This document shows positions 13,403 through 42,015 of a DNA stretch of 64,000 nucleotides, piece by piece. Source of the stretch: Bacteroidetes bacterium RIFCSPLOWO2_12_FULL_35_15 (lineage in GTDB: Bacteria > Bacteroidota > Bacteroidia > 2-12-FULL-35-15); the NCBI GenBank assembly GCA_001769385.1, contig MEPB01000037.1, positions 12,241-76,240 on the forward strand, written 5' to 3'. The position numbers and the translations under genes were made by a program. Under the pieces are notes generated by a model, which saw only the letters and a program-made list of their open reading frames with translations, was not told the DNA's origin and made no database searches. The stretch's first letter is position 1. Every line of letters starts with the position of its first letter.

Positions 13403-14281
13403 TTATTCTTCAATTACAGCATCGCCAATATATTTTCCTGCTTTATAAATTGCAATACGAGTTAAGATACCGTCATTGCTATAATAGTACACTTTCCCTT
13501 CAACTAAGCGGTTTTTACTGAATGTACCATCTTTTGATACTTGTTTATTAGAGTTATATAATTTCCAATAACCTTCACCGTTAAACACTTTACCCAGATT
13601 ATCTTTTTCAGTTTTTTGAGGAATCACCGGTGGGGCTTCTACTACTTCATCCGGTTTTTTAGCTACAATAGGTTTTTTAGGTTCAAATGTCTTTGTAGTC
13701 GCAACATCAAGGGTTCCACCGTTAAAATTTTTCTCGGATTTTATGTCCCCATTTTCATAAAATTCCTTTAATACACCGGATTCTTTTCCTTCAGCCCAAC
13801 TTCCTTCAATCATAACCTGTCCGTTTTCATGAAAATATTGTTGCGTTCCTTCACGTTTTCCTGTTGCATTAAATTTGAATGCTTGCTGAACCTGGCCATT
13901 TTCATAGTAAAGTTTGTAATCTCCTACCCAACGGTTATTTTTCCATAAACCTTCTTCTTTGATCTTTCCATTATCATGGTACATAACAGCATAACCACTA
14001 GGACGATTGTTTTCATAAGTGATTTTACTTTTTACGTTGTTGTTAGGGTAATATTCTTTCCAGATACCAATCTTCTTGCTATCCGTATATTTTCCCTCTT
14101 CAACTTTTTGATCATCCTTGTATTCTGGTTTGTGAACCATTTTGTTGAAAATGATCCATTTACCTTGCTTTTTACCGGCTAGGTCAGTAAAATTTATAGT
14201 GTCATTATTGTTTAATTCAAAAGACTGAGCTATTACAATTTTACAAGTGATGAATAATAATATTAAAATAATTTTTTTCAT
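13403..14281 (-). CDS. Secreted MORN-repeat-variant (YwqK-like) protein
   Basis: Signal peptide, then repeated ~23-aa units of GxWKEYYxNGxxKSEGxY type. Confidence 0.65.
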   Translation of the reverse strand: MKKIILILLFITCKIVIAQSFELNNNDTINFTDLAGKKQGKWIIFNKMVHKPEYKDDQKVEEGKYTDSKKIGIWKEYYPNNNVKSKITYENNRPSGYAVMYHDNGKIKEEGLWKNNRWVGDYKLYYENGQVQQAFKFNATGKREGTQQYFHENGQVMIEGSWAEGKESGVLKEFYENGDIKSEKNFNGGTLDVATTKTFEPKKPIVAKKPDEVVEAPPVIPQKTEKDNLGKVFNGEGYWKLYNSNKQVSKDGTFSKNRLVEGKVYYYSNDGILTRIAIYKAGKYIGDAVIEE

Positions 14282-26776: not shown

Positions 26777-26891
26777 ACATCAAAAGTGCTAAGATTTAAG
26801 GGAAAAGCAAAAACTTTTTAAGAAAAACTTATTTTTTTATTATGGATGCAACCAAATAATGCAACTTTGCATCTAAACAACAGAAACGATT

Positions 26892-27419
26892 ATGACTGAT
26901 GAGCAAATAGTAAATGGCTGTATTCAAAAGAATGCTCTTGCTCAGGAATATTTGTATAAAAAGTTTTCACGAAAAATGATGGGCGTTTGCCTTCGTTATT
27001 CAGATAGTCAGGAGGAGGGAGAGGATGTTTTACAAAACGGGTTTATAAGTGTTTTTGAAAATATTGGATCATTTAAAGGAACGGGGTCGTTGGAAGGGTG
27101 GATTCGGAAAATAATGACCAATACAGCACTGACAAATATTAGAAAGAATAAAAAATTAAAACAAAATATAGCTTTGGATAGTGTAGAGTTCGCACTCCCC
27201 TCGGCCAATTATACGAATGAAAATTTTGCGGTAAAGGATTTGTTAAAAATAATACAAACATTACCACCTGGTTTTAGAACAGTTTTTAACTTGTATGCGA
27301 TCGAAGGATATTCCCATAAAGAAATAGGTGATATGTTGGATATTTCTGAGGGAACTTCAAAATCGCAATATTCAAGAGCAAAAGCACATTTACAAAAAAT
27401 AATATCAATTGACAGATAG
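26892..27419 (+). CDS. ECF-family RNA polymerase sigma-70 factor
   Basis: Region 2 (YKKFSRKMMGVCLRYSDSQEEGEDVLQNGFI) and region 4 HTH (YSHKEIGDMLDISEGTSKSQYSRAK). Confidence 0.85.
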   Translation: MTDEQIVNGCIQKNALAQEYLYKKFSRKMMGVCLRYSDSQEEGEDVLQNGFISVFENIGSFKGTGSLEGWIRKIMTNTALTNIRKNKKLKQNIALDSVEFALPSANYTNENFAVKDLLKIIQTLPPGFRTVFNLYAIEGYSHKEIGDMLDISEGTSKSQYSRAKAHLQKIISIDR

Positions 27420-28426
27420 TGATCAACATGAAAAATAACAATTTAGAAGATTTATTTAAAGATTCGTTCGAAAATTTTGAAGCGGATATTAATCCAAACG
27501 TTTGGAAAAATATTAAGGCTGGAATAAAAGAAGGGGATTCAGGAGTTGTAGCAAAGTTCAAATTTAACAAAATTGGCGTTAATGCTATTGTTGCCATAGT
27601 TTCGTCTATTGCCGCAATTATAGGAACTGTTTTGGTGATGAATATTGGATCTGATGACAGCAGCAGATCAAAACCGGTTAATACCACCCACGATGCCGAA
27701 TTAAACAAAACGGTTATTTCACCACAACAATCAGCAACAACTGAAAAAGGAGCTCCTGTTAAGGAAATTGAGCAAAAAGCGAACTGTTCGAACATTCAAA
27801 ATACAAATAATTCAGGAATAACAACTGATCAAATAACGAGTGAGAATATCGGAAATATCAAAAAAGACAAACAAAAGATCAACTCTATTATCAACACATT
27901 GTCTGAAGAACCAGTTGCATTAATCAATGCTTATCCAATTGGTGGAACAGTTCCTTTATTTGTGAATTTATCAAACAAAGGAATTGGAAAGACAAATAAA
28001 TGGACATTTAATGATGGGAAAAAATCAACCACATCAGCCAACCCTGTCCATGTTTTTGAAAATCCGGGTGTTTATACCGTTATTCTTACGTCTGTAAGTG
28101 CGGAAGGGAAAACATCAATTGACAGTGTGGAGGTGGAAGTAACAGGCAATTCATCTATTTCTCCAATTCCAACAGAGTTTTCGCCTAATGGTGATGGAAT
28201 AAATGATGAGTTTGTTTTTAAAAGCCAGTTTATTGCCAATATGAGCGCTGTTATATTTGATAAAAACGGCAATATTATTTATACATGGGAAGGTGAAGGA
28301 AAATGGGATGGAAAGGATTCAAAAGAAAAAAATGCGAAAATCGGGACCTATTTTTATTTGATTTCAGCGGTAGGTGTTGACGGAAAGAAGTTTGAACAAA
28401 AAGGATCAATAAATCTTACCAGATAA
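27419..28426 (+). CDS. Anti-sigma-like single-pass membrane protein with periplasmic PKD-like domain and gliding-motility-type (T9SS type B) C-terminal domain
   Basis: Start overlaps the sigma gene stop by 1 nt. ~50-aa N-terminal segment, TM (AIVAIVSSIAAIIGTVLVM), Ser/Thr-rich linker, PKD-like segment (PVHVFENPGVYTVILTSVSAEG). C-terminal FSPNGDGINDEF...GTYFYLISAVG block typical of the CHU_C/T9SS type B CTD. Confidence 0.65.
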   Translation: MINMKNNNLEDLFKDSFENFEADINPNVWKNIKAGIKEGDSGVVAKFKFNKIGVNAIVAIVSSIAAIIGTVLVMNIGSDDSSRSKPVNTTHDAELNKTVISPQQSATTEKGAPVKEIEQKANCSNIQNTNNSGITTDQITSENIGNIKKDKQKINSIINTLSEEPVALINAYPIGGTVPLFVNLSNKGIGKTNKWTFNDGKKSTTSANPVHVFENPGVYTVILTSVSAEGKTSIDSVEVEVTGNSSISPIPTEFSPNGDGINDEFVFKSQFIANMSAVIFDKNGNIIYTWEGEGKWDGKDSKEKNAKIGTYFYLISAVGVDGKKFEQKGSINLTR

Positions 28427-28565
28427 TATTTAAATGTTTTATTGTTGAAAATACGTAAAAAGCTCAAAAAAGATTATAAAACTGAAGAGGAAATATAAAA
28501 TCCCTCTTCAGTTTTTTTATTTTGAAACTATAAATTATATTATATTAGCATCAAAAAAATTTAGG

Positions 28566-31500
28566 GTGAAAAAAAATAAAATTTGTATTTTCTTTTTATT
28601 GGGATTGTTGCTAACTCAAAACCTAAGGGCATCACATATCGCAGGCGGTGATTTGAGTTATGTTTGTTTAGGAAATAACCAATATCAGATCAATCTTAAT
28701 TTGTTTGTTGATTGTTTGGGTTTTGACCCTGGAGCTAACCAAACCATAACTTTTACAAGTTCGTGTGGAGGAAGTGCAACTGCAACGGTAAATGTAATTA
28801 ATCCCGGTGGTACAGAAATTTCTCAATTATGTCCTGCACAAATAAATAATAGTACATGTAATGGAGGAACCCTGCCCGGCATGTGGGGTTTCCATTTCAC
28901 CGGGACAGTAACACTCGCTCCTGCATGTGATACCTGGACAATGAGCTGGACCACCTGTTGCAGAAATGCAGCAATTTTAAATCTTCAGACTCCTGATGTT
29001 TTCGGAAGTTATATTCAAGCGACCCTCAATAGTGTCACGGCTCCATGTAATAGCTCTCCATCATTTACTTCTCAGCCAATCCCTTATGTTTGCGTTAATC
29101 AGCAAGTAAATTATAATTATGGTGTTGTTGAAACAGATGGTGATTCTATGTATTATTCATTGATAAATGCAATGGATGCAAATGCTGTTAATCTTGCTTA
29201 TGTTGCAGGGTATTCAGCTAGTTCTCCAATTCCCGGAATCACCATTAATCCGATAACAGGGGTGCTTACTTTTACCCCAACCATGCTTGGGAATTTTGTA
29301 GTAGTTGTTTTGGTTCAGGAATATGATAGCAATGGAAATTTGATTGGAACAGTTATGCGTGACATTCAGTTTATCGTACAAAGTTGTTCCAATATTGTTC
29401 CTGATCCTACTGCCGGTGCAATTTCAAATTTAACAGGAACAGCTGTTCAAACAAGTCCTTTTTCTATTGAAATGTGCGAGGGATCTTCTTTTACATTTGA
29501 TGCTACTTATACTGATGCAAATGCAGGAGATGTTTTAACATTGGTTTCAAATATTTCAACTGTACTGGCCGGGTCAACACTTACCACAACAGGAGCAAAC
29601 CCGCTTGTAGCAACTATAACCTGGACTGCTCCTGGCGGAAGTGCAAATACAAATACCAGTTTTAGTGTTACCGTTAATGACGGAGCCTGCCCTGTTATGG
29701 GGCAACAAACATTTGTTTATGACATTAATGTTCAGCCTCGAACTCTAGCGGGCCCCGACCATATTATTTGTGGAATACAAAGTGTAACATTAACCGGAAC
29801 AGGTGGAAGCCTTTTTACATGGAACGTAATAAGTGGTCCTGCAATGATTGTTGGAACAAATTTCTCTTGCAATCCTTGTGCAAATCCTATTGCATCTCCA
29901 AATGCTACCACCACTTATGAAGTGGTAAGTAATCTGAGCGGAACCTGCGTAAATAAAGATACAGTTACTGTTACTGTTGTTCCCGATTTTTCTTTTGTCA
30001 CCATTCAGACTACTGATACCTTGTGTTTGCAGCAACTTGTGCAGTTAAATATTACAGGTTCTCCTGCCGGAGCATATACCTATTTATGGTCTCCACCAAC
30101 GTATCTGAATAATATTACAATTGCCAATCCTACAGCAAATGTTACTGTTCCGGGAACCTATAGCTATTATGTTGATATTACAAGCCCTTTGGGTTGCCTT
30201 AAAAAAGATACTGCAACTATAACAATTCTCCCGGACATCAGAACCCGAGTTGGACCGGATACAGTATTGTGTATTTCCCAAAGTGCCCAATTAAATGCGA
30301 CAAGTGGAAGTTCTTTTTCCTGGAATGTATTAAGCGGTACTCCAATGGTTGTTGGAACAAATTTTTCCTGTAACCCATGCGCCAATCCTATTGCTACACC
30401 AACTGTAACAACGGTATATCAGGTAACGAGCAATTTAAACGGTACTTGTATAAATAAAGACACCATTACTGTTACTGTTGTTCCAAATTTTTCCTATGTA
30501 ACAAGTCAGAGTTCAACGAGCTCATGCTTGTTGCAGCCAATACAATTTAATGCAGTGGGTTCTCCTGCCGGGACATATACCTATGACTGGTCTCCTTCCA
30601 CGTATCTAAACAATACAACAATCGCAGACCCTGTTGCAACAATTTCTTCTCCCGGAACCTATACGTATTATGTGAATATAACAAGTCCTTTGGGTTGCGT
30701 GAAAATTGATACTGCTTCCATTACAATAACTGCAAGTTATCCTCCAAATCCGGTTTCAACTGTAACGGATACGGTTGTTTGTGTAGGCGATACAGTTTTA
30801 CTTGGGGTAACTTTTGGAACTTCAGTTCCATCAGTATGTGGTACAAATCCGATAGGTTGTAGTGCTGCTTTAGTTGGAACTGTGGGAACAGGAACAACCT
30901 CCAACTCTACTACCAGCTATCCCGCACCTTACGGAAATTGGTACACTTCTGCAAAGCATCAGTTTTTGTTTAAAGCTTCAGAGTTAATTGCTGCAGGAAT
31001 TACCGGAGGAAAAATTGATCAGATCGATTTTAATGTCTCTACAATTACTGGAATAACAGCATATCACGAATATACAATAAATATGGGTTGTACAAATCTG
31101 ACTACTTTAACGAATTGGGTGACCGGCTTATCAAATGTTTACACTCCAAAAACCTATAATGTTGCAAGTGGATGGAACGGCCATGTTTTTGATCTGGCTT
31201 ATGAATGGGACGGAATATCAAATGTGGTAGTTGAAATTTGTTTTAGTGAAATGCCACCAACATCAAATTACACTAACAATTGTTCTTCCCCTTATACAAC
31301 AACAACATTTACATCTTGTTTATATTCAATAAGTGATGTTACACCACAATGTCCAAATCTGGGTCTGCCAACTACAACTAATAACAGACCAAATGTTCGT
31401 TTTCATTATTGTGGATCTGCTCCAGACTCAACAAAATATACATACACCTGGATGCCGCTAAGCGGAGTTTTTAATCCGCATACACAAACTACAGGTGCGA

Positions 31501-32363
31501 TAGTTAGCGGGAATACAAATTATTATGTTATTGTTACTGATACAGTTAGTGGTTGTTTAGATACTGCATTTATTAATATTTATGCCGGCACTAACTCTAT
31601 TAATGTGAATGCGGGGAATGATGTAACTATTTGCCCGGGTGCATCTACAACATTACAGGCAACAGGCGCATCTCAATTTATATGGAGCCCGCCTACAGCA
31701 TTATCAAGCACAACGATTGCAAATCCTAGCGCAAATCCAACAACTACAATTACTTATACCGTTACAGGGACCAGCCAATGTGTTTCGGGGCAGGGAATGG
31801 ATAGTGTAAAAGTTATTGTTCCTATTGTTTCTCCTTTAACAATATCTGCAGGGGATAATCAGGAGGTTTGTGTTTCAACAGTATATGGATTGAATGTTGC
31901 TTCCTCAGGAGGTTATGGAAATAACACCTATGCCTGGACCTTATTATCAGGTGCAGCTATTGATCCAATAAATAATGCGAACACAGCAAATGCTTCGGTG
32001 ACTCCGACATTAGAAGGAACAAATACATATCAGATTACAACAATAGATGCATGTGGTAATTCAGTTACAGATACAGTTCTCGTTAATGTTCTACCGGATT
32101 GCGATCTGGAAATTCCAAATATTTTTACACCGAATGGCGATGGGGAAAATGATTATTTTATTGTGAATGCGAAGCATCTCAACTCTTATTCAATTGTTAT
32201 TTATAATCGCTGGGGGAAAAAGGTATTTGAGTCAAACGATGTTAATCAAAGTTGGGACGGAAAAAATAATGAGGACGGAACTTATTTTTACATCATTAAA
32301 GCGGAAGGAATTGATAAAATGCTTTATGATAAAAAAGGCTATCTTCAACGATTAGGAAAATAA
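28566..32363 (+). CDS. Large secreted T9SS type B cargo protein (1265 aa) with Ig-like tandem repeats and gliding-motility-associated C-terminal domain
   Basis: Signal peptide. Two ~161-aa tandem repeats. C-terminal FTPNGDGENDYF...GTYFYIIKAEG CTD. A mid domain (YGNWYTSAKHQFLFKASELIAAG...) resembles one in the M43 protease at 7729. Confidence 0.75.
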   Translation: MKKNKICIFFLLGLLLTQNLRASHIAGGDLSYVCLGNNQYQINLNLFVDCLGFDPGANQTITFTSSCGGSATATVNVINPGGTEISQLCPAQINNSTCNGGTLPGMWGFHFTGTVTLAPACDTWTMSWTTCCRNAAILNLQTPDVFGSYIQATLNSVTAPCNSSPSFTSQPIPYVCVNQQVNYNYGVVETDGDSMYYSLINAMDANAVNLAYVAGYSASSPIPGITINPITGVLTFTPTMLGNFVVVVLVQEYDSNGNLIGTVMRDIQFIVQSCSNIVPDPTAGAISNLTGTAVQTSPFSIEMCEGSSFTFDATYTDANAGDVLTLVSNISTVLAGSTLTTTGANPLVATITWTAPGGSANTNTSFSVTVNDGACPVMGQQTFVYDINVQPRTLAGPDHIICGIQSVTLTGTGGSLFTWNVISGPAMIVGTNFSCNPCANPIASPNATTTYEVVSNLSGTCVNKDTVTVTVVPDFSFVTIQTTDTLCLQQLVQLNITGSPAGAYTYLWSPPTYLNNITIANPTANVTVPGTYSYYVDITSPLGCLKKDTATITILPDIRTRVGPDTVLCISQSAQLNATSGSSFSWNVLSGTPMVVGTNFSCNPCANPIATPTVTTVYQVTSNLNGTCINKDTITVTVVPNFSYVTSQSSTSSCLLQPIQFNAVGSPAGTYTYDWSPSTYLNNTTIADPVATISSPGTYTYYVNITSPLGCVKIDTASITITASYPPNPVSTVTDTVVCVGDTVLLGVTFGTSVPSVCGTNPIGCSAALVGTVGTGTTSNSTTSYPAPYGNWYTSAKHQFLFKASELIAAGITGGKIDQIDFNVSTITGITAYHEYTINMGCTNLTTLTNWVTGLSNVYTPKTYNVASGWNGHVFDLAYEWDGISNVVVEICFSEMPPTSNYTNNCSSPYTTTTFTSCLYSISDVTPQCPNLGLPTTTNNRPNVRFHYCGSAPDSTKYTYTWMPLSGVFNPHTQTTGAIVSGNTNYYVIVTDTVSGCLDTAFINIYAGTNSINVNAGNDVTICPGASTTLQATGASQFIWSPPTALSSTTIANPSANPTTTITYTVTGTSQCVSGQGMDSVKVIVPIVSPLTISAGDNQEVCVSTVYGLNVASSGGYGNNTYAWTLLSGAAIDPINNANTANASVTPTLEGTNTYQITTIDACGNSVTDTVLVNVLPDCDLEIPNIFTPNGDGENDYFIVNAKHLNSYSIVIYNRWGKKVFESNDVNQSWDGKNNEDGTYFYIIKAEGIDKMLYDKKGYLQRLGK
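29740..30725 (+). repeat. Intragenic tandem duplication (2 x ~483 bp) in the large cargo gene
   Basis: Protein repeats RTLAGPD...TGTGGSLFTWNVISGPAMIVGTNFSCNPCANPIASP... and RTRVGPD...ATSGSSFSWNVLSGTPMVVGTNFSCNPCANPIATP.... The nucleotide copies have diverged (~80% identity by eye). Confidence 0.6.
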
Positions 32364-34241: not shown

Positions 34242-37200
34242 GTGTTTTTAAACTTTTTTATGAATAAACTTTTTCACGCTTTCTTATTAGTTTTCTTTGC
34301 TTTAATAATTCAGCAAAAATTGGAGGCGCAGTACAATGGCTATCCAATAAGAAATTATACTTCAAAGGAAAACAAAGGTTTTACTCAAAACTGGGTTTGT
34401 GTACAGGATAAAAGGGGTGTGCTTTATTTTGGAAATAGCAGTGTTATTTTAGAATATGATGGAAAAGTATGGCGAAAAATACCCGTTACAAGCAGTGTGG
34501 CAATACGGTCGTTATACATTGATAGTTTAGGAACTATTTATGTTGGTTCAGTTGGCGATTTCGGCCTTTTAGTTCCTCAAAAAAATGGCGAACTTGTTTT
34601 TCAATCCTTAACAAAAGGACTAACAGAAAAAGAAAAAAACTTTTCAGATGTATGGAAAATCCACAATAATAAAGGGGCTGTAATTTTTCAATCAAGCGAG
34701 AATTTATTTTTTCTGAAGGATAACAAAATAACTACGATCAGTCCTGAATTTTCTTTTGCTTCCCTTTCTTTTATTGCAAATGATGATTTTTATATCCGGC
34801 AACGCATGGTTGGTCTGATGAAATTAGAAGGTAATAAACTTCATCTGATTCCTGAAGGTGAAAAGCTGAAAGATGATGGAATATTGGGAGTTATTCCATT
34901 TCCAAAACATTCAAAAAATAAATATCTGGTGCTTACCGGTGATAATGGATTTTTTTTAATTGATGATATTAAAAAAAATATAACACCTGTTTTGTCAACT
35001 TCAGCAAAACAGTTGAATGATATTGGAGTACTGGGAATGAACTGGTTTAATGATTCAACAATTTTTATAAACTCCCGTGGAGGTATTATTTCCCTGAATC
35101 AAAAACTGGAGCTGCAAAAAATTATAAATAAAAGCGATGGATTAAATGATGAATCAATTGCAAATATGTTTGTTGATAAACAAAAAGAATTATGGCTATG
35201 TACAAATAATGGTATTAGTAAAATATCTATCAATTCACCACTTTACTTTTACAATAATTCCTCCGGATTAAAAGGCAACATATTTAAAATTTCTATTTAT
35301 AATAATAAAATATTTGTAGGAACTACTGCAGGTATATTTCAGGCAGAATTAAACAACCAGAATAAAAGCAGCACCGCTGAAAAATTGATTTTTAAGAATA
35401 TTGAAGGAACCTATTTTGAGGTATGGGATTTTAATCAAAATAAAAATCAATTGTTAGCAGCAACAAGTGATGGAGTTTTTGAAATAGCCAATAATAAAGC
35501 AAATAGAATAACGAAAGCCTATTCAAATATTATTTTTAATTCGGTAAATAGCGAAAATAGAATGTATGTAGGAGAAAAAGATGGACTGAAAATTCTTGAA
35601 AAAAATAAAAGTTTAAAATGGGAAGTAAAACATTTTCTTGATTTCCCAACAGATGATATTGTAAGTATTGTTGAAATACCCAATGATTCAATCGATCCAA
35701 AGGAAGTTGTTTTGTGGATGACTACAAGAAATAAGGGTGCAATGAAAGTATCATTTGATGGAACATTTAATTATAAACTGACAAGATACGATACTACAAG
35801 AGGTTTACCCAATGAATTAATAAATCTGGAGATATATAATGGTAAAGTATATTTCTGTAATGCTGTTGGTTCATTTGTCTATGATAAAAACAAAATATCC
35901 GCATTTACTCCCGCTCTTAATTGGGGTACCGGAAATATATTTTTATATGATAAAAACAAAGATGAGGGAAAGAAAAAGTGTTTTACAGAAATTCCGATGA
36001 ATTCTATTTGGAATGAAAAGGAAACACTAATTTCTGATGATTCTATTTCAGGCGATGGAAAAAATTTATTAAATGCTTTGATGGTGATGGAAGAAAAGGG
36101 ATACACGTATTATCAGAATAATCCGGATATCTTATGGATTGGACTTTCTGATATCCTTATCAGGTATGATTCGCATGTTAAAAAAGATTATCAAACAGCA
36201 TTTAATACCTTGATCAGGAAAGTATCGATAGGAAAAGATTCAACTGTTTTTTTTGGCACCTATTCCAATCCAATTAGCGAAACAAAAAGAATTGTTTCAT
36301 TAGATCAGGGAAGCGACCAGTTTCTTCAACTGCCTTATAAATATAATAGTTTGACATTTGAATATGCTGCGCCATTTTTTGAACGTGAGGAACAGACTCA
36401 ATTCAGTTACAAACTAATCGGCTTTGATACAGCATGGTCTGCATGGTCAATAAGTTCGTCTAAACAATTTACTAATTTATTCGAAGGGGAATACATATTT
36501 ATTGTAAAAGCTAAAAGTGTTTATCAAAACGAAAGCCGGGTTGCTCACTATAAATTTACAATTCTCCCGCCTTGGTATAGAACTTTTTGGGCTTATATAT
36601 TTTATTTATTGATATTCGTTTTATTAATTGTTATTGCCGTAAAAATTAGTGTAAGGCGATTAACCCTTGCCAAAATTAAACTGGAAAAAATTGTGACAGA
36701 ACGCACGACAGAAGTAGTAAAACAAAAAGAAGAACTTCAGCAAAAAAGTGCAATCATTGAAATCGCTTATGATGATATTAAATCAAGTATTAATTATGCC
36801 AAACGTATTCAGGAATCTATTCTGCCATTAAAGAATGAAATAAAAAAATCATTCCCTGAGTCATTTGTTTTATTTAAACCCCGTGATATTGTGAGTGGCG
36901 ATTTTTATTGGTTTTCAAAACATGAGAATAGGAATATAATTGCTTGCGTTGATTGCACCGGACATGGCGTTCCGGGGGCTTTTATGAGCATGATCGGCAA
37001 CACCATACTGAACGAAATAATAAATGAAAAAGGAATAGAAACACCTTCAGAAATATTAAATTTATTGCATGAACGTGTTCGTCAATCTCTTAAACAGGAT
37101 CTGGAAAACGCTGAAACGAGGGATGGAATGGATATATCGCTTTGCGTTATTGATACTTTAAATAGCAAAATACAGTATGCCGGAGCAAACCGGCCCTTGT

Positions 37201-37529
37201 ACATTATCCGCAAAAACAAGCTGGAAGAAATAAAACCAAACAAAATGCCAATTGGGGGTTATCAGATGGAGGAGGACAGGCGCTTTCTTAATCATGAAAT
37301 TTCATTGAATAGTGGTGATACAATTTATTTAACTACTGATGGCTATGCCGATCAGTTTGGCGGAGAAAAAGGGAAGAAATTTATGGTGAAACGGTTTCAC
37401 CAACTGTTAATGGAGATTCAAGATCAAACCATGGAACATCAGGCTGAAACGCTTAGATCTACTATTGAAAAATGGCAAGGGTCGTTAGAACAAGTAGATG
37501 ATATACTTTTGATCGGTATAAAAGTTTAG
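34242..37529 (+). CDS. Membrane-anchored PP2C/SpoIIE-family protein phosphatase with periplasmic beta-propeller (two-component-regulator-propeller-like) and Y_Y_Y-like sensor domains
   Basis: Signal peptide, ~750-aa periplasmic region, Y_Y_Y-like segment just before the TM (WYRTFWAYIFYLLIFVLLIVIAV), coiled coil. C-terminal PP2C block (DIVSGDFYW...CTGHGVPGAFMSM...DGMD...TDGYADQFGG...DDILLIG). Confidence 0.8.
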   Translation: MFLNFFMNKLFHAFLLVFFALIIQQKLEAQYNGYPIRNYTSKENKGFTQNWVCVQDKRGVLYFGNSSVILEYDGKVWRKIPVTSSVAIRSLYIDSLGTIYVGSVGDFGLLVPQKNGELVFQSLTKGLTEKEKNFSDVWKIHNNKGAVIFQSSENLFFLKDNKITTISPEFSFASLSFIANDDFYIRQRMVGLMKLEGNKLHLIPEGEKLKDDGILGVIPFPKHSKNKYLVLTGDNGFFLIDDIKKNITPVLSTSAKQLNDIGVLGMNWFNDSTIFINSRGGIISLNQKLELQKIINKSDGLNDESIANMFVDKQKELWLCTNNGISKISINSPLYFYNNSSGLKGNIFKISIYNNKIFVGTTAGIFQAELNNQNKSSTAEKLIFKNIEGTYFEVWDFNQNKNQLLAATSDGVFEIANNKANRITKAYSNIIFNSVNSENRMYVGEKDGLKILEKNKSLKWEVKHFLDFPTDDIVSIVEIPNDSIDPKEVVLWMTTRNKGAMKVSFDGTFNYKLTRYDTTRGLPNELINLEIYNGKVYFCNAVGSFVYDKNKISAFTPALNWGTGNIFLYDKNKDEGKKKCFTEIPMNSIWNEKETLISDDSISGDGKNLLNALMVMEEKGYTYYQNNPDILWIGLSDILIRYDSHVKKDYQTAFNTLIRKVSIGKDSTVFFGTYSNPISETKRIVSLDQGSDQFLQLPYKYNSLTFEYAAPFFEREEQTQFSYKLIGFDTAWSAWSISSSKQFTNLFEGEYIFIVKAKSVYQNESRVAHYKFTILPPWYRTFWAYIFYLLIFVLLIVIAVKISVRRLTLAKIKLEKIVTERTTEVVKQKEELQQKSAIIEIAYDDIKSSINYAKRIQESILPLKNEIKKSFPESFVLFKPRDIVSGDFYWFSKHENRNIIACVDCTGHGVPGAFMSMIGNTILNEIINEKGIETPSEILNLLHERVRQSLKQDLENAETRDGMDISLCVIDTLNSKIQYAGANRPLYIIRKNKLEEIKPNKMPIGGYQMEEDRRFLNHEISLNSGDTIYLTTDGYADQFGGEKGKKFMVKRFHQLLMEIQDQTMEHQAETLRSTIEKWQGSLEQVDDILLIGIKV

Positions 37530-37530
37530 C

Positions 37531-37560
37531 AAAAAGCCCACAATCTGTGGGCTTTTTCTT
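37531..37560. terminator. Bidirectional rho-independent terminator
   Basis: Hairpin agcccaca-atct-gtgggct flanked by A and T tracts (aaaaagcccacaatctgtgggctttttc). Confidence 0.7.
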
Positions 37561-37561
37561 T

Positions 37562-37771
37562 TTATGCATTTTTAATCTCTGTAATGATCACTTTTCCGGT
37601 AGGGGTAGTTACTTTAACGTAAACAAATCCATCCCCGATTTTTCTATCAATGGTAGCACCCGGTTGGAAAAATTCCCATTTGTTGGCTGTACCTGCTTCG
37701 GTTAAACGTCCGGAATCACTGTCATAGATATCTGCAAGTGTTCCGCTTTTGTCTTCTCTAATTGCTGCCAT
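37562..37771 (-). CDS. Small hypothetical protein (69 aa)
   Basis: ORF directly bounded by the terminator hairpin. No hydrophobic segments. No recognised motif. Confidence 0.4.
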   Translation of the reverse strand: MAAIREDKSGTLADIYDSDSGRLTEAGTANKWEFFQPGATIDRKIGDGFVYVKVTTPTGKVIITEIKNA

Positions 37772-37913
37772 AAATTTTTTTTATAGGTTAATATTAATTT
37801 TATTAAGCTAAGTAACTAAATATTAATTAGAACAACAAACTTTAAAACGATTTCCTCCGTAAGATTTTATAACCATATTTTGATATATTTGTCTTACTAA
37901 ATAATACTACTCC

Positions 37914-39893
37914 ATGGTACGTTTCGTTTTTATCTTTCTCTTAGCGATCTGTTTAACATTTCCGGGTTTTGGAAATAATAAATTAGATTCATTAATAAAC
38001 CAAATCGAAACATTTAAAGAAGATACCTCAAAGGTTAATGAGATATTGAAAGTATGTGCTCTTATCCGAGAAAATGACCCTGACAGAACGATTGAGATCG
38101 CTGAGAAAGGGATTAAACTTTCGCAAAACCTGGATTATAAATTAGGCTTAGCAAAGTGTATTCAAAATGTGGGTATTGCATATCATAACAAAGGCAATTA
38201 TGAAAAGGCGGTAGATAATTATCTGAAAGCATTAAAATATTTTGATGAACTAAAAGATGACAATGGTATAGGAACAACTTATAATTTGTTGGGGATCGTA
38301 TGTCGTTTACAAGGTAATTATAAACAGGCAATTGAATATTATAAAAAAGCGCTTCAATTGTCAAAGGAAAGCGGGGATAAAAAAAGTTATGCCGGTACAC
38401 TTTTAAATATTGGAAATGTGTTTTATTTTTCTAATGATTTTGAATCTGCAATTGATTATTATCAACAAGCAAATGCAATATTTCTTGAATTAGGAAAAAA
38501 AAATGAAGCTGCAACTTGTCTGCAAAATATTGGAAGTATTTATTTTTCGCTAAGTAAATTTGATCTTGCTCTTGAAAACTATACAAAAGTATTGGATGTA
38601 AGACTTGGAGATAATGATCAATCGCTTATTGCTGTGGCTTTAAATAATATCGGGGAGGTTTATAAAGAGAAAGGAGATTTTCATAAAGCAATTGAATTTA
38701 TAAATAAGAGCATAATTATTTCTAAAAAAACTGATGCTAAAGAAACACTCCGGATTAATTACGAAAACATGTTAGATCTTTATTCTAAACAAGGAAATTA
38801 TAAAGAAGCCATCAACTATTTTAAATTAGTTTCAGATTTAAAAGACACTATTTTTAATATCGAAAGCAATAAGCATTTGCAAGGACTTTCGGTAAAATAT
38901 GAATCTGAAAAAAAAGAATCTGAAAATAAAATTCTTCGTTCGGAAACAGAACGGCAAAAAATTATTAATTGGTCAATAAGTACAGGATTGTTTTTATTGG
39001 CAGTGCTAACATTTTTCATTTTCAGAGGATACAAAAACAAGAAACGTGCACACCTGATCATCAGCGATCAAAAAAAAGAAGTGGAACGGCAAAAATTAAT
39101 TGTTGAAAATCAAAAAGAATTAGTTGAAGAAAAAAACAAAGAAGTATTGGATAGTATTTATTATGCCCGTAGGATCCAACGGGCACTTTTAACAAGTGAA
39201 GGATATATTAAAAAACATTTGAATGCCGATTTTTTTATTCTCTTTAAACCAAAAGATATTGTTAGCGGTGATTTTTATTGGGCCGTGGAGCACAATAATT
39301 TATTTTTTATAATGACCGCAGATTGTACAGGGCATGGTGTTCCGGGAGCATTCATGAGTATGTTGGGGATTAATTTTTTAAATGAGATTATTATTGAACG
39401 GAAAATAAAAAATCCTGCTCTTATATTGGATATTTTACGCGAAGAGATCATTCGTAACTTGAATCCGGAAGGTGCCGAAGAAGCAAAAGATGGAATGGAT
39501 GCCGTAATATGTGTGTACGATATGCAAAACAAAAGGATGGATTTTGCTGCGGCCAACAATCCTTTGTGGTTAAATAGAAATGGAGTGATAACTGAATACA
39601 AAGCTGATAAAATGCCTGTGGGAAAATATTATGAAAATGCCTTGGGTTTTACCAAACAAAGTATTGAATTAGAAGCCGGCGATACCATTTACACCTTTAC
39701 AGATGGTTATGCTGATCAGTTTGGTGGCGACAAAGGAAAAAAATTTAAATATAAACCATTGAAAGAAATGTTCCTGGAAAACAGCAACAGATCAATGAAA
39801 GAGCAAAAAGATATATTTGACAAAACATTCGAAAGCTGGCGTGATAAATTAGAACAAGTGGATGATATTTTAGTGATTGGAATAAAAGTTTAA
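37914..39893 (+). CDS. Membrane-anchored PP2C/SpoIIE phosphatase with periplasmic TPR sensor domain
   Basis: Signal peptide, ~8 TPR-like units (GNYEKAVDNYLKALKYF...), TM (WSISTGLFLLAVLTFFIF). C-terminal PP2C block homologous to the 34242 and 39895 proteins. Confidence 0.8.
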   Translation: MVRFVFIFLLAICLTFPGFGNNKLDSLINQIETFKEDTSKVNEILKVCALIRENDPDRTIEIAEKGIKLSQNLDYKLGLAKCIQNVGIAYHNKGNYEKAVDNYLKALKYFDELKDDNGIGTTYNLLGIVCRLQGNYKQAIEYYKKALQLSKESGDKKSYAGTLLNIGNVFYFSNDFESAIDYYQQANAIFLELGKKNEAATCLQNIGSIYFSLSKFDLALENYTKVLDVRLGDNDQSLIAVALNNIGEVYKEKGDFHKAIEFINKSIIISKKTDAKETLRINYENMLDLYSKQGNYKEAINYFKLVSDLKDTIFNIESNKHLQGLSVKYESEKKESENKILRSETERQKIINWSISTGLFLLAVLTFFIFRGYKNKKRAHLIISDQKKEVERQKLIVENQKELVEEKNKEVLDSIYYARRIQRALLTSEGYIKKHLNADFFILFKPKDIVSGDFYWAVEHNNLFFIMTADCTGHGVPGAFMSMLGINFLNEIIIERKIKNPALILDILREEIIRNLNPEGAEEAKDGMDAVICVYDMQNKRMDFAAANNPLWLNRNGVITEYKADKMPVGKYYENALGFTKQSIELEAGDTIYTFTDGYADQFGGDKGKKFKYKPLKEMFLENSNRSMKEQKDIFDKTFESWRDKLEQVDDILVIGIKV

Positions 39894-39894
39894 T

Positions 39895-42015
39895 ATGAAA
39901 ATGAAAAAGACAATCAATTATTTTTTTTCTTACCGCTTGATCATACTTTGTTTTGCAATAGGGGGCAGCGGTAAACTGTTGCAAGCTCAAAACTCAAATA
40001 AAATTGCAGATAGCTTAATTGTTTTGCTGAAATCAGCAACAGATACAACACGTATAAATATATTGAATGAAATCGCTTATGAATATATTTCTGATGCTCC
40101 TGAAACAGCAACAAAATATGCAAATGAAGCTTTGCAGCTGGCGCAGAATGTTGATTTTTTAATGGGAGAAATAAATGCAAATAATAATTTGGGATTGGCT
40201 CAGTATTACAGCAATAATTATGATGCTGCACTTGACTATTACAATAAGGTGCTTTTGTTAGCTAGGAAAAATGGGGATAAATTAAAAGAAGCGAGCGCCA
40301 TAAATAATATTGGATTGGTATATGATGATAAAGCAGACTATACTAAAGCACTGGAAAATTATTTAAAGGCATTACAAATAGTAGAAAAAATAAATGGCAA
40401 ACGACTTATTGCCAGCACCACTAATAATATAGCATTGATTTATCAAAATCAGGGAAAATATGAACAAGCACTCGCTTTTCATCACAAAGCATTAAAAATA
40501 AAGGAAGAAATTAAAAATACAAAAGGGGTAGGAAACTCCTTGCATAATATTGCCCTGGTCTATAAACTAAAAGGTGATTACGAAAAAAGTTTAGAATATA
40601 ATTTTAAAGCTTTAGCCATTCGGGAATCAGTGAATGATATGAACGGGAAAGCTCTTACATTAAATAATATTGGTAGCGTATATGAATCGATGGAAGAATT
40701 TGATAAAGCGCGTACCTATTTTGAGGAGTCCCTTGAAATACGAAAACAATTAAAGGACCAATATGGTTTAGCGGTTACTATATTTAGCCTGGGCTCCAAC
40801 TATTTTAGCCGGAAACAATATGAAAAAGGTTTTGAATACATGCAGGAAGCGATCGAAATATCAAAAAAAATCGGGGCAAATGAGTTACTTAAAAAAGAAT
40901 ACCAAACAATGGCAGAAGTGTTTGCTGACCGGCAAAATTTTTCAAAAGCATACGAATATCAAAAACTATATATTAACGTAAAAGATTCTATTTTAAATGC
41001 TGAAACAGAAAAACAAATTAATGAACTACAAACAAAATACGAAACAGAGAAAAAGCAAAAGGAAATTGAACTGATCACTAAAAATAATGAGATCCAGGCG
41101 CTCGAACTTAATAAAAATAAATTATGGATATGGATGCTCGTTGTAGCTGTTTTATTAGTGTTTACGCTTGCAGGATTGTTTTACAACAGGTCTAAATTAA
41201 AACAAAAGGCAAATGTATTGCTAGAGCATCAAAACACGGAAATAACGCAGCAGAAAAAAGAAATTACCGATAGTATCAATTATGCAAAACGCATACAGGA
41301 ATCTATTCTTCCACCATCTGAACATTGGAAAAAATTACTGCCGGATAGTTTTATTTTTTATCGTCCCAAAGATATTGTCAGCGGTGATTTTTATTGGATA
41401 GAACAAAAAAACCAAACTGTTTGTTTTGCCGCTGTGGATTGCACCGGACATGGTGTTCCGGGAGCCCTCATGTCGGTAGTTGGATTTAATTTACTGACAC
41501 AAGCCGTGAACGAAATGAATTTAACAAAACCTTCAGAAATACTAAAACATTTAGATGCAGGGGTTACAAAAACATTACGACAATCAAATGACGGAAAAGG
41601 TGTGAAGGATGGAATGGATCTTTCCTTGTGTTCATTAAATAAGGAAACAAATGAATTGCAATATGCCGGAGCATTTAATTCATTGTACTACATTAATAAT
41701 GGAGTATTTATTGAAATAAAAGCGGATAAATTTCCAATAGGTGTTAATCTTGATGGTATTGTGGATAATTATACCAATCATACTATTCAACTTCAAAAAG
41801 GAGATGCTGTTTATTTATACAGTGATGGTTATGCCGACCAGTTTGGAGGAGCAAAAGGAAAAAAATTCAAATACAACCAATTGAAAAACTTGCTTGTTTC
41901 AATTTCAGAAAAGCCAATTGAAGAACAGCAAAAATTAATTGCAGATGCTTTTGATAATTGGAAAGGGGAGCTGGAACAAATAGATGATGTGTTGATAATC
42001 GGGGTGAGGGTGTAA
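39895..42015 (+). CDS. Membrane-anchored PP2C/SpoIIE phosphatase with periplasmic TPR sensor domain (third paralog)
   Basis: Starts 2 nt after the previous stop. TPR array, TM (LWIWMLVVAVLLVFTLAGLFY), PP2C block (DIVSGDFYWIEQ...CTGHGVPGALMSV...SDGYADQFGG). Confidence 0.8.
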   Translation: MKMKKTINYFFSYRLIILCFAIGGSGKLLQAQNSNKIADSLIVLLKSATDTTRINILNEIAYEYISDAPETATKYANEALQLAQNVDFLMGEINANNNLGLAQYYSNNYDAALDYYNKVLLLARKNGDKLKEASAINNIGLVYDDKADYTKALENYLKALQIVEKINGKRLIASTTNNIALIYQNQGKYEQALAFHHKALKIKEEIKNTKGVGNSLHNIALVYKLKGDYEKSLEYNFKALAIRESVNDMNGKALTLNNIGSVYESMEEFDKARTYFEESLEIRKQLKDQYGLAVTIFSLGSNYFSRKQYEKGFEYMQEAIEISKKIGANELLKKEYQTMAEVFADRQNFSKAYEYQKLYINVKDSILNAETEKQINELQTKYETEKKQKEIELITKNNEIQALELNKNKLWIWMLVVAVLLVFTLAGLFYNRSKLKQKANVLLEHQNTEITQQKKEITDSINYAKRIQESILPPSEHWKKLLPDSFIFYRPKDIVSGDFYWIEQKNQTVCFAAVDCTGHGVPGALMSVVGFNLLTQAVNEMNLTKPSEILKHLDAGVTKTLRQSNDGKGVKDGMDLSLCSLNKETNELQYAGAFNSLYYINNGVFIEIKADKFPIGVNLDGIVDNYTNHTIQLQKGDAVYLYSDGYADQFGGAKGKKFKYNQLKNLLVSISEKPIEEQQKLIADAFDNWKGELEQIDDVLIIGVRV

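What the first reader, a model, noticed from the sequence alone, without database searches (positions are those of the whole stretch)
26892..32363. ECF sigma factor translationally coupled to an anti-sigma-like protein that carries a T9SS type-B C-terminal domain, followed by a 1265-aa type-B cargo
The gene after the ECF sigma overlaps it by 1 nt. It has a short cytoplasmic N-region plus one TM, like an anti-sigma factor. Its periplasmic part is a PKD-like domain ending in the gliding-motility-associated C-terminal domain, the same CTD class as the giant protein encoded 140 bp downstream. A T9SS sorting signal on an inner-membrane-anchored regulator is topologically paradoxical. This suggests that engagement or proteolysis of the anti-sigma by the type-B T9SS pathway could couple sigma activity to secretion status.
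Basis: partly seen in the sequence, partly recalled or inferred. Interest (0 to 1): 0.55.

Follow-up and report, generated by a model that had tools for sequence, protein, structure and literature searches.

The report
Sigma factor partner with secretion-tag domain
A stress-type sigma factor in uncultured Bacteroidota is always paired with a membrane-anchored partner whose outer end is an altered copy of a type IX secretion tag. This suggests an undescribed way of wiring gene expression to the secretion machinery or the outer membrane.

Summary
An ECF sigma gene (26892-27419) is followed within 8 nt by a 332-aa protein (27428-28426). That protein has a conserved 48-aa N-terminal module, one strongly hydrophobic TM, a variable ~75-aa linker, a PKD domain and a C-terminal CHU_C/type-B CTD. 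A 1265-aa type-B cargo gene follows.

The pairing is not chance. In 50 of 50 related loci examined, a homologous ECF sigma lies directly upstream. These include distant relatives with 36-60% identical sigmas. A conserved ECF-type promoter (26847-26874) precedes the operon.

The N-terminal module matches no Pfam, NCBIfam or PDB entry. It defines 436 protein clusters, most of which end in CHU_C.

Three corrections:
- The 1-nt overlap depends on a GTG start that homologues do not support.
- A strong terminator separates the operon from the cargo gene. The cargo has no ECF promoter and is adjacent in only about half of the loci.
- The partner's CTD is a distinct subclass. The tryptophan of the (R)WG motif is present in 47/47 ordinary type-B CTDs and in 0/190 sigma-linked ones.

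Best reading: an anti-sigma factor whose tethered, CTD-like domain probes the type IX pathway or the outer membrane. Sigma binding and T9SS coupling are inferred, not shown.

The parts
26847..26874 (+). ECF-type promoter-like element TGCAACC-N15-GCATCT (17 nt between AAC and CAT), ending 17 nt before the sigma ATG
   Evidence: It is the only strict match in the 64-kb window; 0.26 are expected by chance. It is conserved upstream of sigma in 38/42 loci by strict pattern, and the other four differ by one base. The two hexamers are kept while the spacer varies (L016, L017, L023, L037, L040).
26892..27419 (+). ECF (group 4) sigma factor, 175 aa
   Evidence: Pfam r2 and r4_2, and TIGR02937. The closest solved relatives are SigE, AlgU, SigW and RpoE. 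Identity to the sigma is 68-96% in 41 close MAG loci and 36-60% in 9 distant loci.
27428..28426 (+). Anti-sigma-like single-pass membrane protein, 332 aa. An alternative GTG start at 27419 is unlikely.
   Evidence: More than 500 full-length homologues. It lies directly downstream of the sigma in 50/50 loci.
27428..27571 (+). Cytoplasmic N-module, residues 1-48. Motif: LEDLFKxSFENFEAxVxPxVWKNIQ.
   Evidence: F10, K11, F14, E18, W26 and N28 are invariant in 121 sequences. A profile search finds 436 cluster representatives. There is no match in Pfam, NCBIfam or PDB. AF2 predicts two short helices (residues 7-15 and 23-34) at low confidence.
27572..27640 (+). Transmembrane helix, residues 49-71
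   Evidence: Kyte-Doolittle 19-residue window maximum 2.6, 23 uncharged residues. The sequence is conserved (majority fraction 0.71). G50 and S60 are invariant, and S59, T67 and N72 are at least 90% conserved.
27641..27859 (+). Variable, low-complexity periplasmic linker, residues 72-144
   Evidence: Majority fraction 0.31, and 12% identity to homologues. pLDDT is below 50.
27860..27922 (+). Conserved juxta-PKD segment, residues 145-165 (KKDKQKINSIINTLSEEPVAL)
   Evidence: Majority fraction 0.62. A helix is predicted at residues 148-159.
27923..28162 (+). PKD Ig-like domain, residues 166-245
   Evidence: PKD_4 E=4e-9. pLDDT is about 90.
28163..28423 (+). Divergent type-B CTD-like domain (CHU_C), residues 246-332. 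It lacks the (R)WG motif and has IFDKNG instead.
   Evidence: CHU_C E=1.3e-14; TIGR04131 35.0 bits, equal to its cutoff. It is 34% identical to the cargo CTD over 116 aa. W at the RWG position occurs in 0/115 family members and 0/75 distant members, against 25/25 and 22/22 cargo CTDs.
28478..28526 (+). Intrinsic-terminator-like hairpin plus U-tract, ending the sigma/partner operon
   Evidence: -19 kcal/mol, z=-5.3. The hairpin is also present in L001.
28566..32363 (+). 1265-aa type-B CTD cargo with a cleavable-type signal peptide. It is a neighbour rather than an obligate part of the system.
   Evidence: CHU_C E=1e-20 and K319L-like PKD. The orthologue is directly downstream in 7 loci. Some large CTD gene occupies this slot in at least 19 of 41 loci. 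There is no ECF promoter motif upstream.

Best explanation
The locus is an autoregulated two-gene ECF sigma / anti-sigma module.

Proposed anatomy of the partner protein:
- It is a type II (N-in) single-pass inner-membrane protein.
- Its 48-aa cytoplasmic N-module holds the sigma factor at the membrane (inferred).
- A disordered linker of about 75 variable residues follows the TM. At roughly 0.36 nm per residue its contour length is about 26 nm (about 34 nm if the conserved pre-PKD segment is counted), which is comparable to or longer than the width of the periplasm.
- The linker carries a PKD domain and a type-B-CTD-like domain towards the outer membrane.

Proposed mechanism:
- The CTD-like domain keeps most hallmarks of a T9SS type-B sorting domain but has lost the otherwise universal (R)WG motif.
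- I therefore read it as a tethered probe or decoy rather than a cargo signal.
- It would dock on a periplasm-facing component of the type-B T9SS route, such as a PorP/SprF-type shuttle, the translocon or the GldKLMN-type core, or it would compete with cargo CTDs for that component.
- A change in that engagement would lead to cleavage in the linker or juxta-PKD region, then intramembrane proteolysis of the conserved TM, then release of the sigma factor.
- The free sigma would amplify its own operon from the conserved TGCAACC-N15-GCATCT promoter.

Shown here: the architecture, the universal pairing, the promoter conservation and the CTD subclass. Inferred: sigma binding, the docking partner, the proteolysis and the sign of the response.
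For: 1. Pairing. A homologous ECF sigma lies immediately upstream in 42/42 close loci and 8/8 distant loci. Overlaps of 4-11 nt are common.
2. Core-genome location. The pair sits next to rnr in most of the 42 close loci and has the base composition of its surroundings.
3. N-module and TM. They are as conserved as the folded domains, whereas the linker is not. The module travels with this sigma clade even when the C-terminal domain differs (OMP_b-brl_2 in P0257/L089; no CTD in P0164/L090).
4. Topology. There is a single strongly hydrophobic 23-aa segment at residues 49-71 and no N-terminal signal peptide. PKD and CTD domains are extracytoplasmic, so the N-module must be cytoplasmic.
5. Promoter. 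A bipartite ECF-like promoter is conserved with a variable spacer and is unique in the window.
6. Module-CTD association. Of 123 distant N-module proteins, 76 carry CHU_C. Many of the rest are fragments.
7. CTD subclass. W at the RWG position occurs in 0/190 sigma-linked CTDs against 47/47 cargo CTDs. In SprB each of five conserved type-B motifs is needed for secretion (PMC12618676).
8. Precedent. In P. gingivalis the CTD of PorA binds the sensor PorY in the periplasm and drives the PorXY-SigP cascade. An inner-membrane-tethered PorA is not surface-exposed yet still signals (PMC12152298).
9. Neighbourhood. Large type-B cargo genes are enriched directly downstream: 22 CTD ORFs downstream against 3 upstream in about 265 kb each.
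10. Co-evolution (weak). The sigma distance matrix correlates best with that of the N-module (partial r=0.35, p=0.001), compared with 0.24 for PKD-CTD and 0.13 for the TM.
Against: - There is no sequence similarity of the N-module to any known anti-sigma domain, and no complex model could be made. AF2 gives pLDDT below 50 for residues 1-144.
- No T9SS component or PorP/SprF-like gene was seen beside the pair in the loci inspected.
- The only promoter match is the operon's own. The neighbouring cargo genes carry housekeeping-like -7 boxes and no ECF motif. No regulon links the sigma to T9SS.
- I could not map RWG onto the five published motifs. Loss of RWG might simply reflect a dedicated shuttle.
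- The OMP beta-barrel variants suggest that the common theme may be outer-membrane association in general rather than T9SS specifically.
- The positive-inside bias at the TM is weak (net +2.6 on the N-terminal side against +1.5 on the C-terminal side).
Confidence: 0.42

Rival explanations
1. Secreted anti-sigma, in the manner of FlgM or BtrA. The ectodomain is a genuine T9SS type-B substrate. When the T9SS is assembled and free, it captures the CTD. The PKD-CTD is cut from the membrane anchor and exported to the cell surface. The remaining stub is degraded and the sigma is freed, so secretion competence itself switches on the regulon.
For: - There is a full-length CHU_C match above the Pfam threshold, at the extreme C-terminus as in cargo.
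- The PNGDGxND, WDG, GxYxY and terminal KG..L.R motifs are invariant or nearly invariant.
- The CTD is 34% identical to the neighbouring cargo CTD.
- Cargo genes are enriched next door. They are separated by only 14-51 nt in L024, L030 and L019, which would allow co-transcription there.
- A conserved juxta-PKD segment could be the release site.
Against: - The W of the (R)WG motif is missing in all 190 sigma-linked CTDs but present in all 47 ordinary ones.
- Single-motif mutations abolish secretion of the SprB CTD (PMC12618676).
- TIGR04131 scores only at its cutoff.
- A CTD protein tethered to the inner membrane in P. gingivalis was not exported (PMC12152298).
- No cognate PorP/SprF-like gene is adjacent.
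Confidence: 0.2
2. Envelope-spanning tether, in the manner of FecR-type cell-surface signalling. The C-terminal domain is permanently anchored at or in the outer membrane, through a PorP/SprF-type barrel for the CTD versions and by direct insertion for the OMP-barrel versions. The protein then reports outer-membrane or envelope state (distance, integrity or a surface ligand seen by the PKD domain) rather than T9SS activity as such.
For: - The same N-module and sigma clade is joined either to CHU_C (76 of 123) or to OMP_b-brl / OMP_b-brl_2 domains (5 and 4 of 123; P0257 in L089). What these share is outer-membrane association.
- The linker is long, disordered and variable in length, as expected of a periplasm-spanning tether.
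- Type-B CTD proteins are known to stay bound to PorP-like proteins (PMC9143113; title and abstract).
Against: - There is no evidence for any ligand or for outer-membrane anchoring.
- A polypeptide cannot easily stay threaded across the outer membrane after T9SS transport.
- The beta-barrel variants are a small minority.
- The PKD domain is highly conserved, which is not expected of a diversifying surface receptor.
Confidence: 0.15
3. Not an anti-sigma at all. The second gene is simply a membrane-anchored or signal-anchored PKD/CTD surface protein that is the main regulon member of the sigma factor. The conserved N-terminal region would have another role, such as targeting or an unusually long cleaved leader.
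For: - The N-module has no similarity to known anti-sigma domains.
- All public annotations call these proteins 'gliding motility-associated C-terminal domain-containing protein'.
- The only identified target of the promoter is this operon.
Against: - The N-module is conserved as strongly as the folded domains. It is duplicated in tandem ahead of the TM in relatives.
- It follows the sigma clade irrespective of the C-terminal domain.
- A 48-aa net-neutral leader followed by a 23-aa hydrophobic core is unlike a Sec signal.
- The sigma has no other conserved neighbour that could regulate it, and no C-terminal extension.
Confidence: 0.1

Closest known systems
RseA-RpoE / MucA-AlgU type ECF sigma with a single-pass anti-sigma controlled by regulated intramembrane proteolysis
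   Same: - An ECF sigma, whose closest solved relatives include AlgU and RpoE, is co-transcribed with a downstream single-pass, N-in membrane protein.
- The operon has an autoregulated ECF-type promoter.
- The partner has a periplasmic sensing part.
- The TM sequence is conserved and contains small or polar residues.
   Different: - The cytoplasmic part is only 48 aa and is unrelated in sequence to RseA_N, zf-HC2 or other anti-sigma domains.
- The periplasmic part is PKD plus a T9SS-type CTD rather than an RseA_C or RseB-binding domain.
- Proteolysis was not tested.
PorA - PorXY - SigP circuit of Porphyromonas gingivalis (PMC7712824, PMC12152298)
   Same: - A T9SS CTD acts in the periplasm as a regulatory signal that ends at an ECF sigma factor.
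- An inner-membrane-tethered CTD protein still signals.
- A CTD has a dual or alternative use beyond sorting.
   Different: - PorA has a cleavable signal peptide and a type-A CTD. It is a real cargo and acts through a separate two-component system.
- Here a type-B-like CTD is covalently joined, through a TM, to the presumed sigma-binding module. No kinase or response regulator is involved.
FlgM-sigma28 (flagellar T3SS) and BtrA-BtrS (Bordetella T3SS): secreted anti-sigma factors. This comparison is from my own knowledge and was not checked in the paper library.
   Same: The logic is the same: an anti-sigma carries the export signal of a secretion machine, so that machine status sets sigma activity. 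BtrS is also an ECF sigma.
   Different: - FlgM and BtrA are soluble cytoplasmic proteins exported whole across the envelope.
- Here the protein is membrane-anchored, and only its periplasmic end carries an outer-membrane-translocon signal. Release would need proteolysis.
- The signal itself is degenerate (no RWG).
T9SS type-B CTD cargo (SprB and others; TIGR04131 / PF13585)
   Same: - The C-terminal domain matches CHU_C over its whole length and lies at the extreme C-terminus.
- It is preceded by an Ig-like PKD domain, as in many cargo proteins.
- It is 34% identical to the CTD of the neighbouring cargo.
   Different: - There is no cleavable signal peptide.
- The (R)WG motif is absent in 190/190.
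- No PorP/SprF partner gene is adjacent.
- The protein is small (332 aa) and obligately linked to a sigma factor.
FecR-type cell-surface-signalling anti-sigma factors of Bacteroidota (ECF239-243; PMC7826278)
   Same: A single-pass anti-sigma whose periplasmic end communicates with an outer-membrane machine.
   Different: There is no FecR or DUF4974 domain, no TonB-dependent transducer next door, and the sigma is of a different type.

Membership tests
ECF (group 4) sigma-70 factors | Sigma-2 and sigma-4 domains only, about 170-200 aa, matching ECF profiles above threshold | tested here: met
   PF04542 48.8 bits (cutoff 24), PF08281 54.8 bits (cutoff 25.7), TIGR02937 93.6 bits (cutoff 42.9); 175 aa
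ECF (group 4) sigma-70 factors | Membership of a named subgroup (Sig70_bacteroi1 TIGR02985; PG0214/GFO_1088 NF058625) | tested here: not met
   82.3 bits against a cutoff of 126.4, and 73.1 bits against a cutoff of 130. The ECF-Hub group could not be assigned because the supplementary tables are not held.
ECF (group 4) sigma-70 factors | Autoregulatory bipartite promoter (-35 with AAC, -10 with CGT-like, spacing of about 16-17 nt) | tested here: met
   TGCAACC-N15-GCATCT (GCGTCT in several loci) at 26847-26874. It is conserved in 38/42 loci by strict pattern, and the others are one base off. Function as a promoter is inferred.
Membrane-bound anti-sigma factors (general) | Gene adjacent to and co-oriented with the ECF sigma gene, conserved across relatives | tested here: met
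   50/50 loci, with junctions from about -11 to +90 nt
Membrane-bound anti-sigma factors (general) | Single TM with a cytoplasmic N-terminal domain | tested here: met
   One segment, residues 49-71, KD maximum 2.6. There is no N-terminal signal peptide, and the C-terminal PKD/CTD is extracytoplasmic by nature. SignalP and DeepTMHMM were not available.
Membrane-bound anti-sigma factors (general) | Recognisable anti-sigma domain (class I ASD/zf-HC2, RskA, RseA_N, FecR, NepR/CnrY-like) | tested here: not met
   No Pfam, NCBIfam or PDB-sequence hit for residues 1-91 or for the 75-position profile, even at E<=10
Membrane-bound anti-sigma factors (general) | Physical binding and inhibition of the cognate sigma | not testable with these tools
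   No multimer prediction is available. The only hint is the weak distance-matrix correlation (partial r=0.35).
T9SS type-B CTD cargo (TIGR04131 / PF13585) | C-terminal domain matching the family profile at or above threshold | tested here: met
   PF13585 54.6 bits (cutoff 27). TIGR04131 35.0 bits (cutoff 35), which is borderline.
T9SS type-B CTD cargo (TIGR04131 / PF13585) | Cleavable Sec signal peptide at the N-terminus | tested here: not met
   A 48-aa conserved, net-neutral N-region followed by a 23-aa hydrophobic core, with no conserved AxA-type site. Compare gene 3: MKKNKICIFFLLGLLLTQNLRA/SH.
T9SS type-B CTD cargo (TIGR04131 / PF13585) | Full set of conserved CTD motifs, including (R)WG | tested here: not met
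   W is present in 25/25 neighbouring and 22/22 diverse type-B CTDs, but in 0/115 family members and 0/75 distant sigma-linked CTDs. The other motifs are kept.
T9SS type-B CTD cargo (TIGR04131 / PF13585) | Cognate PorP/SprF-like shuttle gene nearby (frequent, not obligatory) | tested here: not met
   None was found among the genes flanking the pair in the window or in the loci whose neighbours were examined. Whole genomes were not searched.
T9SS type-B CTD cargo (TIGR04131 / PF13585) | T9SS-dependent export | not testable with these tools
   This needs experiment. The organism does encode type-A and type-B CTD proteins (7729-9825; 28566-32363).
Secreted anti-sigma factors (FlgM, BtrA) | Soluble protein exported whole by the secretion machine it reports on | tested here: not met
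   The protein is membrane-anchored. Only the logic is comparable.

The most novel reading that the evidence does not exclude
[quoted passage not shown] This would be a FlgM-like secretion checkpoint for an outer-membrane secretion system, built on a regulated-proteolysis chassis and spread over hundreds of Bacteroidota lineages.
Probability: 0.2. Interest if true: 0.85.

Novelty: new variant of a known kind. Interest (0 to 1): 0.62.

Why it matters
How Bacteroidota match gene expression to the state of the type IX secretion and gliding apparatus is largely unknown outside the PorXY-SigP-PorA circuit of P. gingivalis. This locus points to a much more direct design: a secretion-tag-like domain joined in one polypeptide to the presumed sigma-binding module.

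The design is not a one-off. The N-terminal module defines 436 clusters at 50% identity. Most end in a type-B CTD, all ten members whose names were looked up (and every named homologue in the search tables) are annotated only as 'gliding motility-associated C-terminal domain-containing protein', and every one examined sits behind the same clade of ECF sigma.

The finding gives three concrete handles:
- a new candidate anti-sigma domain of about 30-45 aa that can occur in tandem;
- a diagnostic signature (no RWG) that separates regulatory from cargo type-B CTDs, which should improve T9SS cargo prediction;
- a defined promoter motif for reporter assays.

If the coupling is real, it would make the question 'does the cell sense T9SS load or competence?' directly testable.

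Tried and rejected
- Word-indexed search with the N-module profile returned only 8 short fragments. The exhaustive HMM search was needed instead.
- ECF promoter upstream of the giant cargo gene or its orthologues: not found. Only a GAAAC...GCATC pair with a 19-nt spacer is present, and it is not conserved. I therefore dropped the idea that the cargo is demonstrably in the regulon.
- Promoter pattern scan of metagenome contigs to find regulon members: 120 hits, essentially all chance matches in unrelated GC-rich or GC-poor contigs. Only one (L149) was the sigma's own promoter.
- Fold search of the AF2 model against the PDB: only generic tandem Ig, FN3 or PKD folds (GhpA, SiiE, PorU). It gave no functional discrimination.
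- AF2 of the full protein: the N-module, TM and linker have pLDDT below 50, so there is no structural clue to sigma binding.
- ECF group assignment from Casas-Pastor et al.: the supplementary tables are not held, and the main text does not describe a CHU_C- or beta-barrel-linked group.
- Mapping RWG to motifs A-E of Paillat et al.: the sequences are only in figures.
- Literature searches for an anti-sigma with a T9SS CTD found nothing.
- Signal-peptide reading: rejected for the reasons given in the interpretation check.
- Mobile element or horizontal transfer: rejected. GC content is uniform and synteny with rnr is conserved.
- Rfam: no hits in the window.

Full report
**1. What is there**

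- Gene 1 (26892-27419, 175 aa) is an ECF sigma factor. It matches Sigma70_r2 and Sigma70_r4_2, and TIGR02937 at 93.6 bits against a cutoff of 42.9. It falls below the cutoffs of the named Bacteroidota subfamilies. Its closest solved relatives are SigE, AlgU, SigW and RpoE.
- Gene 2 matches PKD_4 and, at its extreme C-terminus, CHU_C (E=1.3e-14, profile positions 3-85 of 86). The NCBIfam type-B model TIGR04131 scores 35.0, exactly its cutoff.
- Gene 3 (28566-32363, 1265 aa) has a textbook signal peptide and a stronger CHU_C match (E=1e-20).

The sigma stop codon is TAG at 27417-27419. The 1-nt overlap arises only with a GTG start at 27419. Homologues begin in register with the ATG at 27428, so the likely arrangement is an 8-nt gap. 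That is still a tight operon.

Between genes 2 and 3 there is a 13-bp hairpin followed by U7AU4 (28478-28526; -19 kcal/mol, z=-5.3). Base composition is uniform across the region.

**2. The N-terminus is not a signal peptide**

- The only hydrophobic segment is residues 49-71. It is 23 uncharged residues long, with a Kyte-Doolittle 19-residue maximum of 2.6. It follows 48 residues carrying 8 acidic and 8 basic side chains.
- In an alignment of 121 family members, the N-module and the TM have majority-residue fractions of 0.72 and 0.71. This matches the PKD domain (0.75) and the CTD (0.71). The linker (residues 72-144) scores 0.31.
- F10, K11, F14, E18, W26, N28, K48, G50 and S60 are invariant.
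- In more distant relatives the roughly 30-aa motif (IExLFKxxFxNFEAxVxPxVWxNIQ) occurs 2-6 times in tandem before the TM. This cannot be reconciled with a Sec leader.
- With one TM and an extracytoplasmic PKD/CTD, the N-module must be cytoplasmic.

SignalP and DeepTMHMM were not available, so this rests on hydropathy, conservation and architecture.

**3. The sigma/partner pair is a conserved unit**

- A scan of one genome per GTDB species found 42 loci encoding a full-length or nearly full-length relative of gene 2, all in uncultured Bacteroidota MAGs.
- In 42 of 42, an ECF sigma sits directly upstream. It is 68-96% identical to the window's sigma in 41 loci and 49% identical in the Flavobacteriales MAG L042. 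RNase R is divergently transcribed beyond it in most of the 42 loci.
- A profile of the 75 N-terminal residues, run against 1.84 billion cluster representatives, gave 436 hits at E<=1e-3.
- Of 123 hits outside the close family, 76 carry CHU_C and 43 carry PKD. OMP_b-brl is found in 5 and OMP_b-brl_2 in 4. Many of the remainder are fragments.
- I looked up eight of these distant members: P0152, P0241, P0234, P0188, P0167, P0282, the beta-barrel variant P0257 and the five-module protein P0164. All eight lie immediately downstream of an ECF sigma that is 36-60% identical to the window's sigma, often with 4-11 nt overlaps.
- The tally is therefore 50 of 50. The N-module follows this sigma clade whatever the C-terminal domain.
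- The distance matrix of the sigma correlates somewhat better with that of the N-module (partial r=0.35 controlling for RNase R, p=0.001) than with PKD-CTD (0.24) or the TM (0.13). This is weak support only.

**4. Promoter**

Aligning the region upstream of sigma in 41 sequences shows one sharply conserved block ending 17 nt before the ATG. In the window it is TGCAACCAAATAATGCAACTTTGCATCT (26847-26874).

- The two ends, TGCAACC and G[CT][AG]TCT (GCGTCT in several loci), are kept.
- The spacer is replaced in divergent lineages (L016, L017, L023, L037, L040). This is the pattern expected of a bipartite ECF promoter of the AAC...CGT type.
- It is the only strict match in the 64-kb window; 0.26 are expected by chance.

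Autoregulation is thus likely, but it is inferred.

**5. Relation to the giant cargo**

- The orthologue of gene 3 is directly downstream in only 7 of the 42 loci (L001, L014, L022, L027, L029, L035, L039). It lies one gene further in two loci and upstream in one.
- Some large (1100-1400 aa) CTD-bearing gene, from at least two or three unrelated families, does occupy the downstream slot in at least 19 of 41 loci that have enough sequence.
- CTD ORFs number 22 downstream against 3 upstream, in about 265 kb on each side.
- Gaps range from 14 to 480 nt. They are short enough for co-transcription in L024, L030 and L019.
- Neither gene 3 nor its orthologues have the ECF motif upstream. Several of these cargo genes have boxes resembling the Bacteroidota housekeeping -7 element TAnnTTTG. 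That consensus is from my own knowledge.

The association with cargo is therefore real as a neighbourhood tendency. It is not obligate, and it is not demonstrably regulatory.

**6. The CTD is a separate subclass**

- Gene 2's CTD aligns with gene 3's CTD at 34% identity over 116 residues and shares PNGDGxND, WDG, GTYFY and the terminal KG...L motif.
- Where cargo CTDs have I[FY]NRWG, gene 2 has IFDKNG.
- In a joint alignment, the W is present in 25 of 25 neighbouring cargo CTDs. It is present in 0 of 115 family members and 0 of 75 distant sigma-linked CTDs.
- In 22 further type-B CTDs from diverse Bacteroidota (L043-L080), 20 have RWG and 2 have TWG.
- The total is 47 of 47 against 0 of 190. 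This probably explains the borderline TIGR04131 score.
- Paillat et al. [quoted passage not shown] I could not establish which motif corresponds to RWG.

**7. Structure**

AF2 with 121 sequences gives confident PKD and CTD beta-sandwiches (pLDDT about 90). Residues 1-144 are not confident. Short helices are predicted at 7-15, 23-34 and 148-159. PDB fold matches are generic tandem Ig-like domains. The N-module profile hits nothing meaningful among PDB sequences.

**8. Interpretation**

What is shown:
- a conserved, probably autoregulated sigma/partner operon;
- a new cytoplasmic module tied to one sigma clade;
- a single TM with a conserved sequence;
- a periplasm-length disordered linker;
- a terminal domain that is a type-B CTD minus one universal motif.

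What is inferred:
- the N-module sequesters the sigma;
- the CTD-like domain engages the T9SS type-B route, or the outer membrane, from the periplasmic side;
- a change in that engagement leads to proteolytic release.

I favour a tethered probe or decoy over a secreted substrate for three reasons: RWG is lost throughout the family; in P. gingivalis a CTD is already known to act as a periplasmic ligand for the PorXY-SigP cascade; and an inner-membrane-tethered PorA signals without being exported (PMC12152298).

The FlgM-like alternative, in which the ectodomain is actually secreted, remains open. So does a more general outer-membrane tether model, which is suggested by the beta-barrel variants. 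So does the null model, in which gene 2 is simply the sigma's main target. The sign of the response is unknown: engagement could activate or silence the sigma.

**9. Novelty**

Four full-text searches found no paper describing an anti-sigma factor with a T9SS CTD. The main text of the ECF reclassification paper does not mention such a group. Every source name recorded for these proteins is a generic one such as 'gliding motility-associated C-terminal domain-containing protein'. No cultured organism was seen among the carriers, which limits immediate testing.

I classify this as a new variant of a known kind. ECF sigma with a single-pass anti-sigma is the known kind. The cytoplasmic module and the CTD-derived sensor are new.

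**10. Verdict**

Interest is 0.62. Confidence in the preferred mechanism is 0.42. Confidence that this is a genuine sigma/regulator pair with a CTD-derived periplasmic domain is considerably higher, about 0.8.

Noticed in passing
L014:7958-8234, L021:7982-8287, L027:7988-8277, L029:5358-5629, L035:7964-8241, L039:7964-8244 (not in the window): A conserved intergenic element of about 230-270 nt lies between the partner gene and the cargo orthologue. It has a 10-bp closing helix (GGGGCATCGG/CCGGTGTCTC), inner hairpins with compensatory changes (10 of 67 predicted pairs) and a 3' hairpin plus T-run. It looks like a small RNA gene. There is no Rfam match.
   Followed up: partly
Proteins P0150, P0153, P0157, P0158, P0164, P0169, P0171, P0218, P0226, P0241, P0246; L090: The N-terminal module of about 30 aa occurs in 2-6 tandem copies before the TM in some relatives. 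Some of these proteins (about 600 aa) have long C-terminal regions with no Pfam match. P0164 still follows a homologous ECF sigma.
   Followed up: partly
P0257 / L089:472-1971, and a few other representatives in alignment A5: The same N-module and TM are fused to an outer-membrane beta-barrel domain (OMP_b-brl_2) instead of PKD-CTD, again behind a homologous ECF sigma. This is a second topologically odd inner-membrane anchor joined to an outer-membrane domain.
   Followed up: partly
window 34242-42015 (+): Three consecutive large sensor proteins end in SpoIIE/PP2C phosphatase domains. One has a Y_Y_Y domain and a TM, and two have TPR arrays. This suggests a partner-switching type regulatory cluster just beyond the ABC-F gene.
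   Followed up: no
window 42026-45550 (-): A 1174-aa ORF with no Pfam match at E<=1e-5.
   Followed up: no
window 7729-9825 (+): An M43 metallopeptidase with an fn3 domain and a type-A T9SS sorting domain (Por_Secre_tail). The organism therefore has both type-A and type-B cargo.
   Followed up: no
window 28566-32363 (+): The giant cargo contains an internal duplication of about 200 aa (…AGPD.I.C…FSCNPCANPIA.P…TTY.V.SNL.GTC.NKDT.TVTVVP.FS.VT…, seen twice). Only its last ~170 residues match Pfam families (K319L-like PKD and CHU_C). The conserved N-terminal 'ASHIAGGDLSY' region is unassigned.
   Followed up: no
L081:3322-4706: In one distant locus, a second sigma-like gene (199 aa, 34% identical, only region 4 detected) and a 260-aa protein of unknown function directly follow the partner gene. 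L040 also has a second paralogous sigma about 2 kb downstream.
   Followed up: no
L008:12027-12096 (-): A Flavo-1 sRNA (Rfam RF01705, 55 bits) lies downstream of the cargo gene in that locus.
   Followed up: no
window 13403-14281 (-) and 49701-51431 (+): Two MORN-repeat-variant proteins lie in the window. An OmpA-family protein is at 48572-49579.
   Followed up: no
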